Positions 12,647 through 19,138 of a stretch of 32,000 bases of DNA are shown here, piece after piece. Source of the stretch: Promethearchaeota archaeon (GTDB lineage Archaea; Asgardarchaeota; Thorarchaeia; Thorarchaeales; Thorarchaeaceae); assembly GCA_027031765.1 (NCBI GenBank), contig JALVPN010000077.1, forward strand, positions 1 to 32,000, in the 5' to 3' direction. Under the pieces are notes generated by a model. The model did no database searches. It worked only from the letters and a program-made list of their open reading frames with translations, and had not been told where the DNA came from. Every line of letters begins with the position of its first letter. Position 1 is the stretch's first letter. The position numbers were made by a program, and so were the translations under genes.

Positions 12647-13312
12647 GTGATAGCCCTTCGACTGAAGGCACCAGAGAAAATCCTTGAGGCGCTGGAGGGA
12701 CACGAGAAGATAGTGCTCTTTGGGGACTCCGGGTGTGCCCAGCTGTGTGATGTGGGCGGACTGCTCCAGCTCGAGGACATGGAGGACTTCCTGACAAGGA
12801 ACGGGAAGACCGTCCTCGGTGCTGTGTTCGTCGAGGGTGGCATCTGCAATGGCCCTGTCTTCAGGAGTACGGTGCAGGAGCAACGGGCAGTGATAGACAG
12901 CGCCGACGCACTGCTGGTACAGGCCTGTGGTGTCGCAGTACAGACCATTGTAGAACACATCCCGGAGAAGGAGGCCTTCCCTGCGGCTGACTCGATGTTC
13001 CTCGGGGTTTCAAGGGGGCGTGGGACACACTCCGAGCTCTGCGCGATGTGCGGGGACTGCATCCTCCACCTGACCGGCGGGATATGCCCACTGGCCCGCT
13101 GTGCGAAGGGGATACTCAACGGCCCCTGCGGTGGCTCCATGAACGGCAAGTGCGAGAGGGATGAGGACACTGACTGCGCATGGCAGCTCATCTACGACAG
13201 GCTGCGGGCACTGGGAAAGCTCGACAACATCCGGAAGGTGTGGGAGATGAAGGACTGGAGGAGCTCACATGGGCCGCGGGTCATCTCGCACCATGGAGGC
13301 GCAATAGCCTAA
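12647..13312 (+). CDS. metV: Methylenetetrahydrofolate reductase C-terminal-domain (MetV-like, Cys-rich Fe-S/Zn) subunit
   Basis: GCAQLC and ACGVAVQ, plus the Cys cluster CAMCGDC...GICPLARCAKGILNGPCGG...GKCE...CAW. It is immediately upstream of metF. GTG start with SD GGAGGT. Confidence 0.8.
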   Translation: MIALRLKAPEKILEALEGHEKIVLFGDSGCAQLCDVGGLLQLEDMEDFLTRNGKTVLGAVFVEGGICNGPVFRSTVQEQRAVIDSADALLVQACGVAVQTIVEHIPEKEAFPAADSMFLGVSRGRGTHSELCAMCGDCILHLTGGICPLARCAKGILNGPCGGSMNGKCERDEDTDCAWQLIYDRLRALGKLDNIRKVWEMKDWRSSHGPRVISHHGGAIA

Positions 13313-13360
13313 AGATAATAAGGGGTCTCAGCCGGTCGAGTCCAGAAACACGAGGAGAGG

Positions 13361-14293
13361 ATAACACTCGGTAGCGGAACACGGCTGCAACAGTCACTGG
13401 AAAGAGAAGGCCTGACCATCACCGGGGAAATCGTACCCCCCCGCGGTGCCAGCCCGAAGGCCCTGCTTGAGAAGGCACGGGCGGTCGCTGCGGACTGTGT
13501 CGCCATCAACATCACGGACAACATACGCGGGAACCCAGCAATGAGCAGCATTGCAGCCAGCCACCTGATATGTGACGTGGGTGCCGAACCAATACTCCAA
13601 CTGTCGACACGCGACAGGAACCGCATACTGCTTGAGAGCGAGCTGTATGGCGCCCATGCGCTTGGCATCAGGAACGTCCTCTTTGTGACTGGCGACCACA
13701 CGCTGCTCGGCACCCATCCGCATGCAAAGATGGTCTATGACCTCGACTCGATACAGGCCCTCCAGCTGGCCTCGGAGCTCATGCATGGCAGGGACCTGGC
13801 GGGAAAGGAGCTCGATGGTACACCGTCGTTCTATCTGGGCTCCACCTTCAACCCGTACGCAGACCCCATGGAGCTCCATGCCTGGCGGGTCGAGAAGAAG
13901 CGGGATGCCGGGGCACAGTTCTTCCAGACGCAGGCAGTATACGATGTCGGGCGGTTCAGAGACTTCATGGCACAGATACGGGGCCTCGGAGTGTACGTGC
14001 TCGCCGGGATATACGTCCTGAGAGGGCCGAAGACCGCGAGGTTCATGGACGAGCGCGTGCCGGGGATATACATCCCAGAGGAGATAATTGAACGGCTCGA
14101 GAAGGCTGGGGAGGGCCTGAGTGGCAAGGAGGCCCGGGCCCGCAGACGGGAGGAGGGCATAGCGATAGCCCTTGAGACCACAAGGGAGGTGATGAGGGTG
14201 CCGGGGGTGCACGGTATTGACCTGATGGGGACGGGCTGGGAGCCACACATCACACGCTTCATCGAATCTGCAAGCGGACAGCAGGAGGGATAG
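13361..14293 (+). CDS. metF: Methylenetetrahydrofolate reductase (MetF); start codon uncertain
   Basis: My translation upstream of the track's ATG 13541 continues as LTITGEIVPPRG...AINITDN. It is followed by EPILQLSTRDRN, LFVTGDH, KKRDAGAQFFQTQAVYD and GIDLMG. There is no ATG/GTG/TTG between the in-frame stops at 13310-13321 and 13541. Confidence 0.85.
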   Translation: MTLGSGTRLQQSLEREGLTITGEIVPPRGASPKALLEKARAVAADCVAINITDNIRGNPAMSSIAASHLICDVGAEPILQLSTRDRNRILLESELYGAHALGIRNVLFVTGDHTLLGTHPHAKMVYDLDSIQALQLASELMHGRDLAGKELDGTPSFYLGSTFNPYADPMELHAWRVEKKRDAGAQFFQTQAVYDVGRFRDFMAQIRGLGVYVLAGIYVLRGPKTARFMDERVPGIYIPEEIIERLEKAGEGLSGKEARARRREEGIAIALETTREVMRVPGVHGIDLMGTGWEPHITRFIESASGQQEG

Positions 14294-14297
14294 GAGG

Positions 14298-16873: not shown

Positions 16874-16888
16874 GACGGGTGTAGCAGT

Positions 16889-18298
16889 ATGCCCACAAGG
16901 CCCACATTTGTGCGCCCGCCACGCATGGGCACGCTGTCACTCAGGAAGGGGCCGTTCTATACGGTGGCCTCTGTAGAACTCGGTAATACCACCACCAAGT
17001 GTGTGGTAGTGACGACCGACCTCAGGACAGCGCGCATGTACATGCTGGGAAAGCTCGTGCGTCTGACGCGTGAGGCAAGACCACCGCGGGAGGGGGAGCT
17101 GGTCTTTGGGAGGACGCTCACTGGCACACCGCTCACACGGGAGTCCGTGGCAGAGCTGGTCGCCGAGACCCTCACGGGAGCTGTAAGGCAGGTGAGGCTG
17201 GACATTGAGCGCGACCTCCACTTCGTCGTCCGGTCCACGGGCGTGACCGCAGGGTTCGCCACACCGTCAGAGGTCGGCGAGATGGTCAGGGCCCTTGCCC
17301 AGGGCTGTCTGCAGGCCGGGATCCCGCCACGGAAGATGACAGCATCAATCTCACTCGACAGGGTCCCACCAGGGCTCCGGCGCTACAGCCTCCTTGACAG
17401 GGTCTACTTTGATGGGGCGGTGGCCGGGACGCGTCCCCCGGCGGCAACGGAAATCGTAGCAAATGAAATGGAGGGGGAGCTGGTCACTGCCGGACTGAAG
17501 GGTGCCGCAAAGAACACGCAGGTCGACTTCAGGAACCCTGTCATGACCCTGGACTTCGGCACCACACTGGCCGGACGCGTGACTGACGAGTCGTACCCCT
17601 ATGCAGATACCATTGGCTCGTTTGCGGGGCTTGGTGGGGCGATACCGGACGCCCTCGTCCGTGGTGCAGGCCTTGCAGACCCGGTCACTGGTTGCGTCCT
17701 TGATGTCGAGGCCCCGAAACGGTACAGCGTGGAGGTGGGCGAGTGGCTCGAAAAAGTGCACTCGCTTGTGGATGTGCGGACAGTCCCAGCTGGTACCACC
17801 AGGTTCGGCACGGTGCCCGTAGACACCAGGGCAGCGGACGAGTCAGGGGTCGTGCTGATAGGCGTCGACGCTGGGAGGAACGGGTCTGCCCTGTCGGAGC
17901 TGGAGAGACTGGGCGCGGAGGTCTACGAGGCGGGCGGACTGGGACTGCTGATGGGCCTTGTCGACCGGGTGCAGGTACAGACAGTGCAGAGGCTCGTGAG
18001 CACCGCGGAGGAGGAGGGCATCGTGCTCCCCCGGACGGCACTTGGCCTGACAGGAAGGGGGATTACGACTGGCACGAAGCCGCGACTGGTCACAAAGTAC
18101 CTGACCACTGCGAGCGGCGAGCCCTGGACAGAGTCGCATGTCCTGCTCATGGTAGAGGACGGGCTTGCCCTCGGAGCTGCGGTAGCGGCCCGCTGCATGA
18201 ACTCCATGGGGACTCCCAAGCACCCGATAGGTGGCCGTCAGGGTGACGGGTGCGTGCTGGCCGCGCGGCGCGAGGCACAGAAGGGCCGTACTGGATGA
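16889..18298 (+). CDS. Methanogenesis marker protein 14 family (DUF2114), ASKHA/actin-like ATPase fold
   Basis: YTVASVELGNTTTK, FVVRSTGV, VANEMEGEL, DFRNPVMTLDFGTTLAG and the C-terminal EDGLALGAAVAARCMNSMGTP..PIGG. The family was recognised from memory of its conserved motifs. Confidence 0.8.
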   Translation: MPTRPTFVRPPRMGTLSLRKGPFYTVASVELGNTTTKCVVVTTDLRTARMYMLGKLVRLTREARPPREGELVFGRTLTGTPLTRESVAELVAETLTGAVRQVRLDIERDLHFVVRSTGVTAGFATPSEVGEMVRALAQGCLQAGIPPRKMTASISLDRVPPGLRRYSLLDRVYFDGAVAGTRPPAATEIVANEMEGELVTAGLKGAAKNTQVDFRNPVMTLDFGTTLAGRVTDESYPYADTIGSFAGLGGAIPDALVRGAGLADPVTGCVLDVEAPKRYSVEVGEWLEKVHSLVDVRTVPAGTTRFGTVPVDTRAADESGVVLIGVDAGRNGSALSELERLGAEVYEAGGLGLLMGLVDRVQVQTVQRLVSTAEEEGIVLPRTALGLTGRGITTGTKPRLVTKYLTTASGEPWTESHVLLMVEDGLALGAAVAARCMNSMGTPKHPIGGRQGDGCVLAARREAQKGRTG

Positions 18299-18364
18299 GG
18301 AAGACCTATCAGGCCACGGCCCCGTGTCAGGGGCGGCCGAGAGAGCACAGGAGGTCACCGGTCA

Positions 18365-19138
18365 GTGCTTGTCATCCCCATCAGGACCAGGGTCATCAGA
18401 CCCGACGACAACATAGTGGATGTGATACTCGACGGCCTTGCCAGGGCTTGCCACGAGCTCCGTGAAGGGGACATCCTAGGGATTGCTGAAACACCACTGG
18501 GGACGACGGAGGGGCGGGTGATTCGCCTGTCAGACGTAGTTGTGAGTGACAGGGCACGAGACCTTGCACAACGCTACGACATGGTACCGGAGGTCGCGCA
18601 GCTCGTACTGGACGAGGCCGACGAGGTCCTCGGAGGTATCCCACACGTGCTCCTCACAATCAAGAACAACACACTGATGGCCAATGCCGGGGTCGACAAG
18701 TCGAATGTGCCACCGGGCTACGCATCACTGTTGCCCGAAGACCCGGCAGCCAGTGCAGCACGGATACGGGAGGAGGTGGCCAGGCGCCTCGGCATAGGAG
18801 TGGGCGTAATCGTGATAGACAGCCGTACGCAGCCGCTGCGGCTAGGCAACGTAGGGATGGCCCTTGCTGTGGCGGGGTTCCGGCCCGTGGTCGACGAGCG
18901 TGGCAGGACAGACCTCTTCGGGAACGTCCTGCGCGTGACGCGACGTGCTGTTGCTGACAACCTGGCCTCTGCGTGCACTGCGGTGATGGGTGAGGCCGAC
19001 GAGGCAGTCCCAGCGGCACTGATAAGGGATGCGCCCGTCGAGTACACGGACACTGTCCACGACTCGTCAGAGATGTGGATTTCACCCGAGGAGTGCATGT
19101 ACATGGCAATCTTTGAGCAGTGGAGACGCGGGATGTGA
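18365..19138 (+). CDS. cofE: Coenzyme F420-0:L-glutamate ligase family protein
   Basis: IRPDDNIVD, EGDIL.IAE...TTEGR, ANAGVDKSN, LLPEDP..SA, VIVIDS, GRTDLFG, AVADNLASA and GEADEAVP. Confidence 0.88.
   Translation: MLVIPIRTRVIRPDDNIVDVILDGLARACHELREGDILGIAETPLGTTEGRVIRLSDVVVSDRARDLAQRYDMVPEVAQLVLDEADEVLGGIPHVLLTIKNNTLMANAGVDKSNVPPGYASLLPEDPAASAARIREEVARRLGIGVGVIVIDSRTQPLRLGNVGMALAVAGFRPVVDERGRTDLFGNVLRVTRRAVADNLASACTAVMGEADEAVPAALIRDAPVEYTDTVHDSSEMWISPEECMYMAIFEQWRRGM

What the first reader, a model, noticed from the sequence alone, without database searches (positions are those of the whole stretch)
12647..19138. Soluble Mtr-derived C1 module: metV-metF-mtrH-mtrA-mtrH-marker 14-cofE without membrane Mtr subunits
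Seen in the sequence: seven co-oriented genes with 4-66 nt gaps, and no mtrC/D/E or mcr in the window. Established knowledge: MetVF makes methyl-pterin/folate from the methylene form, MtrH transfers that methyl group to the MtrA cobamide, and MtrE/C/D are needed for CoM methylation and Na+ pumping. Inference: a cytoplasmic methyl shuttle linking a corrinoid to the folate/pterin pool, either for oxidising methylated substrates or for supplying methyl groups, built from methanogen parts in a probable non-methanogen.
Basis: partly seen in the sequence, partly recalled or inferred. Interest (0 to 1): 0.72.

Follow-up and report, generated by a model that had tools for sequence, protein, structure and literature searches.

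The report
Membrane-free Mtr methyl-transfer operon, Thorarchaeia
A Thorarchaeota (Asgard) genome from a hydrothermal vent carries a soluble leftover of the methanogens' vitamin-B12 methyl-transfer pump next to a methylene-pterin reductase. The gene set is real, conserved across the family and partly published. Its methyl partner is still unknown, because this genome lacks every usual source or sink for the methyl group.

Summary
Window 12647-19138 holds seven co-oriented genes with 4-66 nt gaps: metV, metF, a divergent mtrH (MtrHa), mtrA, a canonical mtrH (MtrHb), methanogenesis marker 14 (DUF2114) and cofE.

The 95%-complete genome has no MtrC, MtrD, MtrE or McrA, and no second MtrA or MtrH. 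Named relatives are Candidatus Thorarchaeota.

The core mtrHa-mtrA-mtrHb-DUF2114 is present in 20 of 20 loci sampled from 15 genera. Adam et al. 2022 already reported 'canonical MtrAH' plus marker m26 (DUF2114) in Thorarchaeia, and this scan had followed the same cassette on three other Thor genomes.

What this window adds:
- MtrA has no membrane helix. Its tail is a small beta domain whose only PDB match is the N-terminus of MtrB, the segment that docks the MtrH dimer in methanogens.
- MtrHa is a separate, long-branched clade with a fixed Asp-to-Glu change in the pterin pocket.
- This genome, and 11 of 16 genera, lack CODH/ACS. It also has no known methionine synthase or MttB-type methyltransferase, so the module cannot be feeding acetyl-CoA synthase here.
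- Both H4MPT-type (Mer, Mch) and folate-type (Fhs, FolD, MetVF) C1 enzymes are present.

The direction of transfer and the partner remain unresolved. cofE is probably only a syntenic neighbour. I rate it a new variant of a known kind, of moderate interest.

The parts
12647..13312 (+). metV: small Cys-rich partner subunit of MetVF-type methylene-pterin reductase
   Evidence: PF12225 (DUF5981), E 4e-35. Single copy in the genome. Found in 11 of 20 sampled relatives' loci.
13322..14293 (+). metF: MTHFR-family methylene-pterin reductase. This is the open frame from stop to stop; the true start is uncertain and probably non-canonical, near 13361-13385.
   Evidence: PF02219, E 4e-28, match starting near 13382. 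No ATG, GTG or TTG before 13541. It is the only MTHFR in the genome. In relatives where both genes lie on one contig it sits beside the cassette.
14298..15215 (+). mtrHa: divergent MtrH-family pterin methyltransferase paralog
   Evidence: PF02007, 250 bits. TIGR01114 scores 249 bits, below its 271.4 cut-off. Monophyletic clade with support 1.0 and stem length 0.61. Fixed in 20 of 20: D103E, T32G and Arg at the M. mazei R211 position.
15239..15730 (+). mtrA core: cobamide-binding domain with the His ligand (PGH, His79)
   Evidence: PF04208, 191 bits. PDB MtrA 5laa, E 6e-50. AF2 pLDDT above 90.
15731..15931 (+). mtrA C-terminal tail: flexible linker plus a beta mini-domain of about 55 aa resembling the MtrB N-terminus. 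It replaces the membrane anchor.
   Evidence: No TM helix: maximum 19-aa hydropathy is 1.38, versus 2.57 in ANME-1 MtrA. Pfam MtrB positions 2-33, E 0.004. The tail profile has a single PDB hit, MtrB 8q3v_B residues 7-26, E 0.015. hhalign against ANME-1 MtrB gives E 0.007. P183, E184 and G222 are invariant in 21 sequences. In the model the linker 164-171 is disordered and the tail is all-beta with pLDDT 70-80.
15938..16873 (+). mtrHb: canonical MtrH (methyl-H4MPT:cob(I)amide methyltransferase type)
   Evidence: PF02007, 364 bits. TIGR01114 scores 376.5 bits, above its cut-off. PDB M. mazei MtrH 9qtp, E 1e-75. It keeps T32, Q75, D103, N129, D196, H229 and N230; across the family it also keeps the basic patch, though the window copy has Leu at the R239 position. 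It groups with operon-encoded ANME-1 MtrH.
16889..18298 (+). Methanogenesis marker 14 (DUF2114, m26): ASKHA-fold protein linked to Mtr
   Evidence: PF09887, 598 bits. TIGR03285, 589 bits. AF2 pLDDT 87. Foldseek gives ASKHA kinases and Kae1, with RACo at rank 15. Adjacent to mtrHb in 20 of 20 loci. m26 = DUF2114 is 'associated with Mtr' in the supplement of PMC9635834.
18365..19138 (+). cofE: F420-0:gamma-glutamyl ligase. A conserved neighbour, probably not part of the machine.
   Evidence: PF01996, 234 bits. TIGR01916 scores 196 bits, above its cut-off. Inverted in L040 and 2.5 kb away in L035. A second paralog lies on C59.

Best explanation
This is the Thorarchaeia form of a membrane-free remnant of the methanogen Mtr complex.

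Shown:
- A soluble cobamide carrier, MtrA, keeps its His ligand and has no membrane helix.
- It is encoded between two different MtrH-family pterin methyltransferases.
- Upstream is the genome's only MetF-type methylene-pterin reductase, with MetV.
- Downstream is the Mtr-linked ASKHA protein marker 14.

Inferred mechanism:
- MtrHa and MtrHb form a heterodimer, in place of the MtrH homodimer of methanogens.
- MtrA tethers itself to that dimer through its C-terminal MtrB-like beta domain.
- The cobamide domain swings on a disordered linker of about 10 residues into an MtrH active site.
- There, a methyl group passes reversibly between N5-methyl-pterin and Co(I)/CH3-Co(III).
- MetVF, and Mer encoded elsewhere, connect methyl-pterin to the methylene level of the cell's C1 pathways.
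- Marker 14 maintains MtrA, by ATP-dependent reactivation or cofactor handling.

This genome has no CODH/ACS, MtrCDE, Mcr, MttB-type enzyme or known methionine synthase. The second half-reaction must therefore use a partner not yet identified. The best candidate is a family-wide MtaA/URO-D-like methyltransferase on C143. The alternative is that the second MtrH paralog provides it.
For: Gene identities and layout.

Soluble MtrA:
- No TM helix.
- Core, disordered linker and beta tail in the AF2 model.
- Tail resembles the MtrB N-terminus: Pfam E 0.004; sole PDB hit 8q3v_B, E 0.015; hhalign E 0.007.
- In M. mazei, MtrB residues 1-23 dock at the MtrH dimer interface, and MtrA's cytosolic domain binds one MtrH (PMC12774963; bioRxiv 10.64898/2026.07.03.736320).

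Both paralogs are retained:
- Both are present in 20 of 20 loci.
- They are about equally conserved: a-a 65%, b-b 63%, a-b 34% identity.
- The two MtrB-contact positions are split between them. Arg at M. mazei R211 occurs only in MtrHa (20 of 20). An acidic residue at position 5 occurs only in MtrHb (20 of 21), where MtrHa has Lys or Arg.
- Both keep N129, D196, H229 and N230.

Other support:
- The cassette proteins are as conserved as the housekeeping neighbours tgt, hflX and polB.
- MetF is single-copy, present in 53 of 58 family genomes, and beside the cassette wherever both lie on one contig.
- Marker 14 has an ASKHA fold and its link to Mtr is published.
- C1 context in the own genome: Mer, Mch, Fhs and FolD.
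- Absences in the own genome.
- The MtaA-like protein is conserved in 24 of 24 high-quality family genomes, and its best PDB hit is MtaA 4ay7.
Against: - No physical interaction is shown.
- The similarity of the tail to MtrB is weak in each single test (E 0.004-0.015, and only 4 of 21 tails hit the Pfam model).
- Marker 14's best fold matches are sugar-kinase-like and Kae1-type proteins, not RACo. A separate short RACo-like ASKHA protein is also family-wide and could be the real reactivase.
- Two family genomes (G320, G323) keep the trio without any MTHFR. G323 also showed no Mer or CdhC. Coupling to a methylene reductase is therefore not obligatory.
- The MtaA-like gene is unlinked, and it also occurs in an Asgard family without MtrA (f8).
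- Expression and co-transcription are untested.
Confidence: 0.55

Rival explanations
1. Methyl bridge between two C1 carriers. MtrHb uses methyl-H4MPT and MtrHa uses a second pterin (methyl-H4F made or consumed by the adjacent MetVF). MtrA then passes methyl groups between the H4MPT pathway (Mer, Mch) and the folate-type pathway (Fhs, FolD, MetVF).
For: - Both pathway types are present in this genome and across the family: Mer, Mch in 24 of 24, Fhs in 15 of 15 with fhs-folD adjacent on C224.
- metF lies 4 nt upstream of mtrHa.
- No other consumer of methyl-H4F or methyl-H4MPT was found: no MetE or MetH domains, no CdhC and no MtrE.
- MtrHa has a fixed D103E change, seen in only 2 of 93 superfamily representatives. 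It has also lost two of the three basic residues proposed to bind the H4MPT tail (PMC12774963).
- MtrHa fails the MtrH equivalog cut-off.
Against: - At the positions that separate the H4MPT type from the folate type (MtgA-like), MtrHa looks like the H4MPT type. It has Q75 and H229, whereas most bacterial-type representatives have D75 and S32.
- G320 and G323 keep both paralogs without MetF.
- From textbook redox potentials (my knowledge, not computed), transfer would be strongly favoured only from H4MPT to H4F. The benefit of that direction is unclear in a cell lacking methionine synthase and ACS.
- An earlier follow-up on another Thor genome judged this shuttle unsupported there (e1-5383295).
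Confidence: 0.2
2. Methyl supply for a thiol or other nucleophile. One MtrH loads MtrA from methyl-H4MPT, and the family-wide MtaA/URO-D-like enzyme (C143) unloads it. The acceptor could be coenzyme M, homocysteine (a non-canonical methionine synthase route) or another acceptor. The same enzyme could run as an MT1 that loads MtrA from methoxylated or methylated substrates, as in Mto-type methoxydotrophy.
For: - The orphan URO-D family protein's nearest characterised relatives are MtaA and MtbA (NCBIfam; PDB 4ay7, E 1.6e-9).
- It aligns HxH...C with MtaA's HxC...C segment. Reading these as zinc-site positions is my recollection.
- It is present in 24 of 24 high-quality family genomes at 53-61% identity.
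- No PF01717 methionine synthase was found in 0 of 24 family genomes, and no PF02574 in the own genome.
- Price et al. 2021 predict that MtrA donates methyl groups to a core methionine synthase in methanogens (PMC7857596).
- A short RACo-like activator is also family-wide.
Against: - The gene is unlinked to the cassette.
- Its scores are far below the MtaA and MtbA cut-offs (89 bits against 244).
- Homologs occur in family f8, which has no MtrA.
- Many other Asgard families also lack PF01717, so methionine auxotrophy is the simpler reading.
- This model gives no role to the second MtrH paralog.
Confidence: 0.15
3. A decaying evolutionary remnant with no current function, kept only by synteny with housekeeping genes.
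For: Adam et al. call these genes 'remnants' of ancestral methanogenesis. The flanking genes (tgt, hflX, polB) are housekeeping, and the whole block is syntenic.
Against: - In the window and in 19 of 20 sampled loci the four core genes are intact single frames; L035's mtrHa matches in two pieces.
- Identity is 53-71% across 15 genera, about equal to the neighbours.
- Catalytic residues are invariant.
- MtrA is present in 77 of 85 family genomes.
Confidence: 0.03

Closest known systems
Energy-conserving Mtr complex (MtrABCDEFGH) of methanogens and ANME (PDB 9QTS M. mazei, 8Q3V M. marburgensis)
   Same: - The MtrA cobamide domain with its His ligand (E 6e-50 to 5laa).
- MtrHb passes the MtrH equivalog cut-off and keeps all pterin-pocket residues.
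- The MtrA tail resembles the MtrB N-terminal segment that docks MtrH.
- Marker 14 co-occurs with it.
   Different: - No MtrC, MtrD or MtrE, so no CoM methylation site and no Na+ pump.
- No MtrA membrane helix, and no separate MtrB, F or G gene seen within the cassette (the genome was not searched for these families).
- Two distinct MtrH paralogs in place of a homodimer.
- No Mcr in the genome.
- Linked to MetVF.
Thorarchaeia 'canonical MtrAH' plus marker m26 (DUF2114), Adam et al. 2022, Sci Adv (PMC9635834)
   Same: The same lineage and the same genes. This window is a further member, and the paper already ties m26 to Mtr by distribution and synteny.
   Different: In the passages and supplement that I searched, the paper does not describe:
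- the two-paralog structure;
- the MtrB-like tail of MtrA;
- the MetVF linkage ('metF' has 0 occurrences in the main text);
- persistence of the cassette in CODH/ACS-free genera.
MtgA / MtgB / MtgC glycine-betaine methyltransferase system of Desulfitobacterium hafniense (PDB 6SJ8, 6SK4)
   Same: MtgA is an MtrH-family TIM barrel that moves methyl between a corrinoid protein and a pterin in the cytoplasm. Both window paralogs match it (E 1e-52 and 1e-38).
   Different: - MtgA uses H4F and a Rossmann-type B12-binding protein, with an MttB-family MT1.
- This genome has no MttB.
- Its carrier is the MtrA fold.
Fused MtrA-MtrH proteins of Atabeyarchaeia, Freyarchaeia and other Asgard archaea (PMC11291895)
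   Same: Membrane-free MtrA and MtrH in non-methanogenic Asgard archaea, with the methyl acceptor unknown.
   Different: - Those are single polypeptides of about 510 aa, found in other families of the phylum, next to MttB-like and MtbC-like genes.
- Here there are three separate genes, a canonical MtrA, a docking tail and marker 14.
MtoABCD methoxydotrophy system of Methermicoccus (from my own knowledge, not checked here)
   Same: The same logic of MT1 + corrinoid protein + MtrH-family MT2 + ASKHA activator delivering methyl to H4MPT. Thorarchaeia have candidates for each role.
   Different: The candidate MT1 (URO-D-like) and the RACo-like activator are unlinked to the cassette. The corrinoid protein has the MtrA fold, not the MtoC type. 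No substrate is indicated.

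Membership tests
Mtr complex (N5-methyl-H4MPT:CoM methyltransferase, Na+-pumping) | Membrane subunits MtrC, MtrD and MtrE (CoM site and Na+ path) | tested here: not met
   PF04206, PF04207 and PF04211 give no match in the 95%-complete genome. MtrC is found in 0 of 26 genomes, including one from each of 15 other genera.
Mtr complex (N5-methyl-H4MPT:CoM methyltransferase, Na+-pumping) | MtrA cobamide domain with a His lower ligand | tested here: met
   PF04208, 191 bits. 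The PGH motif aligns with the QGH and KGH motifs of solved MtrA. H79 is invariant in 21 sequences.
Mtr complex (N5-methyl-H4MPT:CoM methyltransferase, Na+-pumping) | C-terminal transmembrane helix of MtrA | tested here: not met
   Maximum 19-residue hydropathy is 1.38, against 2.57 in ANME-1 MtrA. TIGR01111 scores 192 bits, below its 249 cut-off.
Mtr complex (N5-methyl-H4MPT:CoM methyltransferase, Na+-pumping) | MtrB N-terminal strand that docks the MtrH dimer | tested here: inconclusive
   No separate mtrB gene within the cassette (the whole genome was not searched with PF05440). The MtrA tail matches Pfam MtrB positions 2-33 (E 0.004; 4 of 21 tails), PDB MtrB 8q3v_B residues 7-26 (E 0.015, the sole hit) and ANME-1 MtrB by hhalign (E 0.007).
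MtrH (TIGR01114 equivalog) | Score above the curated cut-off, plus pterin-pocket residues D103, N129, D196 and N230 | tested here: met
   This row is for MtrHb, which scores 376.5 bits against a cut-off of 271.4 and keeps all residues. MtrHa does NOT meet the test: it scores 249 bits, has D103E and T32G fixed, and lacks most of the basic patch.
Methanogenesis marker 14 (TIGR03285 / PF09887) | Full-length match above the cut-off | tested here: met
   589.5 bits against a cut-off of 274. PF09887 positions 1-448 of 449 are matched.
RACo/RamA-type reductive activators of corrinoid proteins (considered for marker 14) | ASKHA ATPase domain plus an Fe-S electron-input domain, acting on a corrinoid protein | tested here: inconclusive
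   The ASKHA fold is supported (pLDDT 87). RACo 3zyy is only rank 15, with TM about 0.29. There is no Pfam RACo domain and no PDB sequence relative. Four Cys are invariant (C38, C140, C436, C455), but no cluster motif was tested. A true RACo_middle + RACo_C_ter protein exists elsewhere, on C22.
MetVF-type methylenetetrahydrofolate reductase | An MTHFR TIM barrel next to a MetV (DUF5981) subunit | tested here: met
   PF02219 and PF12225 lie in adjacent genes. The flavin cofactor, electron donor and pterin specificity cannot be tested here. The start codon is non-canonical.

The most novel reading that the evidence does not exclude
The Thorarchaeia cassette encodes a self-contained soluble MtrHa-MtrHb-MtrA machine. 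The divergent paralog has changed its pterin (or substrate) specificity, so one cobamide carrier bridges the tetrahydromethanopterin and folate-type C1 pools at the methyl level. That reaction has no known enzyme. Marker 14 would be its dedicated ATP-dependent corrinoid caretaker, which would also assign a function to a universal methanogen protein of unknown role.
Probability: 0.15. Interest if true: 0.8.

Novelty: new variant of a known kind. Interest (0 to 1): 0.5.

Why it matters
- Mtr is the energy-conserving step of methanogenesis, and its soluble MtrAH 'remnants' in non-methanogens have no assigned job.
- This cassette offers a small, membrane-free system of four proteins. In it one could test directly how MtrA docks to MtrH, why MtrH is a dimer, and what marker 14 (universal in methanogens, function unknown) does.
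- The cassette persists in Thorarchaeia that lack CODH/ACS. This contradicts the usual assumption that such MtrAH modules only funnel methyl groups into the Wood-Ljungdahl pathway.
- It bears on how Asgard archaea handle C1 units with two carrier systems side by side.

Tried and rejected
- Complex prediction on MtrHa + MtrHb + MtrA tail: median score 0.22, below the 0.32 mark. No verdict; not used as evidence either way.
- The search for homologous proteins with the tail profile: only two fragments of the same Thor or Promethearchaeota MtrA. It retrieved no MtrB.
- Sequencing runs: one DNA holder, a hydrothermal vent metagenome that is probably the source sample. No RNA holder is listed, so co-transcription and expression could not be examined and read laying was not run.
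- Literature search for marker 14 / Mmp14: swamped by human MMP14 papers. The two Mtr cryo-EM papers say nothing on reactivation or marker 14.
- PDB sequence search with the marker 14 profile: no meaningful hit.
- Idea that MtrA feeds a MesA or MetE-type core methionine synthase (Price et al. 2021): rejected for known families. PF01717 and PF02574 are absent from the genome, and PF01717 is found in 0 of 24 family genomes.
- Idea that MetVF replaces a missing Mer, as proposed for ANME-1: rejected for this genome, which has a Mer above the equivalog cut-off. It remains possible for Mer-less relatives.
- Idea that the module feeds CODH/ACS: rejected for this genome and for 11 of 16 genera.
- Canonical MT1 partners: no MttB. 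The only B12-binding-domain hits are one small 142-aa frame and two larger proteins, which I did not characterise further.

Full report
**Observation**

The stretch 12647-19138 holds seven co-oriented genes, assigned by Pfam and NCBIfam:
- metV (PF12225);
- metF (PF02219);
- a first mtrH, called MtrHa here (PF02007, 250 bits);
- mtrA (PF04208);
- a second mtrH, MtrHb (364 bits);
- methanogenesis marker 14 / DUF2114 (PF09887, 598 bits; TIGR03285 above its cut-off);
- cofE (PF01996).

Intergenic gaps are 9, 4, 23, 6, 15 and 66 nt, and no terminator-like site lies between genes.

Upstream lie tgt (minus strand) and hflX. Downstream lie larC and, on the minus strand, a family B DNA polymerase. Two Ras-family GTPases and a WD40 protein further downstream fit an Asgard host.

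**Whole-genome check**

The window is contig C77 of a 2.95 Mb assembly in 229 contigs, 95% complete.
- I found no MtrE, MtrD, MtrC or McrA.
- The two mtrH genes and the mtrA of the window are the only copies.
- metV, metF, mtrA and marker 14 are single-copy by tblastn.

The 5% incompleteness remains a caveat.

**Lineage and conservation**

Named public relatives of the MtrA are almost all 'Candidatus Thorarchaeota archaeon' MAGs.
- In the phylum-wide genome search, MtrA of about 231 aa occurs in 77 of 85 other genomes of the window's family. Elsewhere in the phylum, most matches lie in much longer open frames (about 500 aa), consistent with the MtrA-MtrH fusions reported for other Asgard lineages; I did not inspect them.
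- I fetched 20 loci from 15 other genera. All 20 carry mtrHa-mtrA-mtrHb-DUF2114 in that order, at 47-71% protein identity.
- In 17 of the 20 loci the cassette lies within the same larger block: tgt / hflX / ... / cofE-larC / polB. L040 has the block rearranged, and the L043 and L044 stretches reach only part of it.
- The cassette proteins are as conserved as these housekeeping neighbours, which argues against a decaying relic.
- cofE is inverted relative to the cassette in L040 and 2.5 kb away in L035. I treat it as a syntenic neighbour. A second cofE paralog exists on C59.
- A genome of another family (G310) has the same mtrHa-mtrA(tail)-mtrHb trio.

**What was already known**

Adam et al. 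[quoted passage not shown] They also state that marker m26 is 'tied to Mtr', including the Thor clade. Their supplement identifies m26 as DUF2114.

This scan had already followed the same cassette on three other Thor genomes (e1-1448014, e1-5383295, e1-5445676). The gene set itself is therefore not new.

**Anatomy of MtrA**

- The core (residues 1-160) aligns with solved MtrA structures (E 6e-50) and keeps the His ligand.
- There is no membrane helix. The highest 19-residue hydropathy is 1.38, against 2.57 for an operon-encoded ANME-1 MtrA.
- The AlphaFold model (pLDDT 85) shows a confident core, a disordered linker (164-171) and an all-beta tail (176-230, pLDDT 70-80).
- The tail is conserved across 21 sequences, with P183, E184 and G222 invariant.
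- Three weak but concordant tests map the tail onto the first 30 or so residues of MtrB:
  - Pfam MtrB positions 2-33, E 0.004 (only 4 of 21 tails reach E 1);
  - hhalign against ANME-1 MtrB, E 0.007;
  - a profile search of all PDB sequences, whose single hit is MtrB of M. marburgensis residues 7-26, '[20 protein letters not shown]', E 0.015.
- In the M. mazei structure, MtrB residues 1-23 are exactly the part that docks at the MtrH dimer interface (PMC12774963).
- The reading 'MtrA has swapped its anchor for an MtrB-type docking peptide' is thus reasonable but unproven. The complex prediction gave no verdict.

**The two MtrH paralogs**

- MtrHb passes the MtrH equivalog cut-off (376 against 271 bits). 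It keeps every pocket residue named for M. mazei MtrH, and across the family the basic patch as well (the window copy has Leu at the R239 position). It groups with canonical MtrH, including one from an ANME-1 mtr operon.
- MtrHa fails that cut-off (249 bits). It forms its own clade with support 1.0 on a long stem. Its nearest non-Thor representative among 1.8 billion proteins is only 38% identical.
- MtrHa carries fixed changes: D103E, T32G and loss of two of the three basic-patch residues. Glu at the D103 position occurs in only 2 of 93 full-length representatives.
- MtrHa still keeps N129, D196, H229, N230 and Q75, so it still looks like a pterin enzyme. At Q75 and H229 it resembles the H4MPT type more than the MtgA folate type.
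- Both paralogs are about equally conserved within the family (65% and 63%, against 34% between them).
- The two MtrH residues that contact MtrB in M. mazei are split between the paralogs. Arg at R211 is found only in MtrHa (20 of 20). An acidic residue at position 5 is found only in MtrHb (20 of 21), where MtrHa has Lys or Arg. I read this as a hint of an obligate heterodimer with one fixed orientation. This is inference.

**Marker 14**

- The model (pLDDT 87) has an ASKHA fold.
- The best Foldseek matches are the MK0840 sugar-kinase-like protein, Kae1/TsaD and glucokinases. RACo is at ranks 15 and 33, and HgdC at rank 44.
- No PDB relative is detectable by sequence.
- A role in ATP-dependent care of MtrA's cobamide is plausible from its strict linkage to Mtr. 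It is not shown.
- It has a competitor: a 438-aa RACo_middle + RACo_C_ter protein without a ferredoxin domain on C22, found in 24 of 24 high-quality family genomes.

**Metabolic context**

This is the main addition for this window.
- The genome has no CdhC. Within the family, CdhC occurs in only 5 of 16 genera, whereas the cassette occurs in all genera sampled. The module therefore cannot simply feed acetyl-CoA synthase.
- The genome does have a bona fide Mer (388 bits, above the cut-off) and Mch.
- It also has an adjacent fhs-folD pair on C224. Fhs is found in 15 of 15 family genera but is rare in the other Asgard families sampled.
- MTHFR is single-copy, present in 53 of 58 family genomes, and lies beside the cassette wherever both genes are on one contig.
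- G320 and G323 lack MTHFR altogether yet keep the trio. G323 also showed no Mer or CdhC.
- Mer occurs in 15 of 24 high-quality family genomes, with no clean complementarity to MetF.
- No known methionine synthase domain and no MttB were found.
- One orphan MtaA/URO-D-like protein (C143) is conserved in 24 of 24 family genomes. It is the best candidate I can name for the missing second half-reaction, but it is unlinked and also occurs in a family without MtrA.

**Verdict**

The finding is real and is a conserved, selected system. It is a new variant of a known kind, not a new kind.

The most likely mechanism is a soluble MtrHa-MtrHb-MtrA methyl-pterin:cobamide methyltransferase serviced by marker 14 and coupled to MetVF or Mer. 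The H4MPT-to-folate methyl bridge is an attractive minority reading (about 0.15-0.2). Direction, partner and pterin specificity need biochemistry.

Noticed in passing
window 13322-13541; also L033, L034, L035, L041, L043, L044: metF has no ATG, GTG or TTG between the upstream stop and its conserved first strand (LTITGE / FVVTxE). The first canonical start, at 13541, would delete two conserved strands. The same holds in 6 of 17 orthologs. Five of those have a CTG about 9 nt after an AAGGAG-type Shine-Dalgarno sequence. The window and L033 have CTC 6 nt after it. In the window, metV and metF share one frame, separated by TAA AGA TAA TAA. Non-canonical initiation is likely.
   Followed up: partly
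own genome and family (no window coordinates): CODH/ACS (CdhC) is patchy in Thorarchaeia. It is present in 5 of 16 genera and absent from this genome and from several genomes that are 97-99% complete. Published descriptions usually treat Thorarchaeia as Wood-Ljungdahl organisms.
   Followed up: partly
G000:C224:2663-5157 (L066): Adjacent fhs-folD pair. Fhs is found in all 15 family genera sampled but in only 2 of 10 other Asgard families sampled. Thorarchaeia thus combine a full folate-type branch (Fhs, FolD, MetF) with H4MPT enzymes.
   Followed up: partly
G000:C143:25609-26799 (L063:8607-9800, minus strand): Orphan MtaA/URO-D-like methyltransferase next to a PolX gene. It aligns HxH...C with MtaA's HxC...C segment. 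It is conserved in 24 of 24 high-quality family genomes.
   Followed up: partly
G000:C22:2086-3402 (L154): Short RACo-like protein (RACo_middle + RACo_C_ter, 438 aa, no ferredoxin domain), next to a Usp gene. It is family-wide, including genomes without a CoFeSP.
   Followed up: partly
G323 (L040) and G320 (L038): Two family genomes keep mtrHa-mtrA-mtrHb-DUF2114 but have no MTHFR anywhere. G323 also showed no Mer and no CdhC. In L040 the cassette is inverted relative to cofE-larC.
   Followed up: partly
L004 (G310:C86:476-3778): A genome of a different Asgard family carries the same trio: an MtrHa-like gene with the FEST motif, a 258-aa MtrA with the LPEFN..LDPYTGLV tail, and a canonical MtrH. 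The duplication therefore predates the Thor family or was transferred.
   Followed up: no
window 19139-19253: The 115-nt spacer between cofE and larC is dominated by an AGAAAG/GAGA purine-rich low-complexity run.
   Followed up: no
G000:C59:13928-14602: A second CofE-like gene, 41% identical to the window's cofE. It is unclear which of the two serves F420 and what the other does.
   Followed up: no
window 23406-24044, 25507-26742, 26759-27295, 28543-30024: Two Ras/Rab-like small GTPases flank a WD40 beta-propeller protein, followed by a pair of KaiC-like ATPases. This is typical Asgard 'eukaryotic signature' content.
   Followed up: no
window 16889-18298: Marker 14 has four invariant cysteines across 20 orthologs (C38, C140, C436, C455). 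This could be a metal or cluster site. Their proximity in the model was not examined.
   Followed up: no
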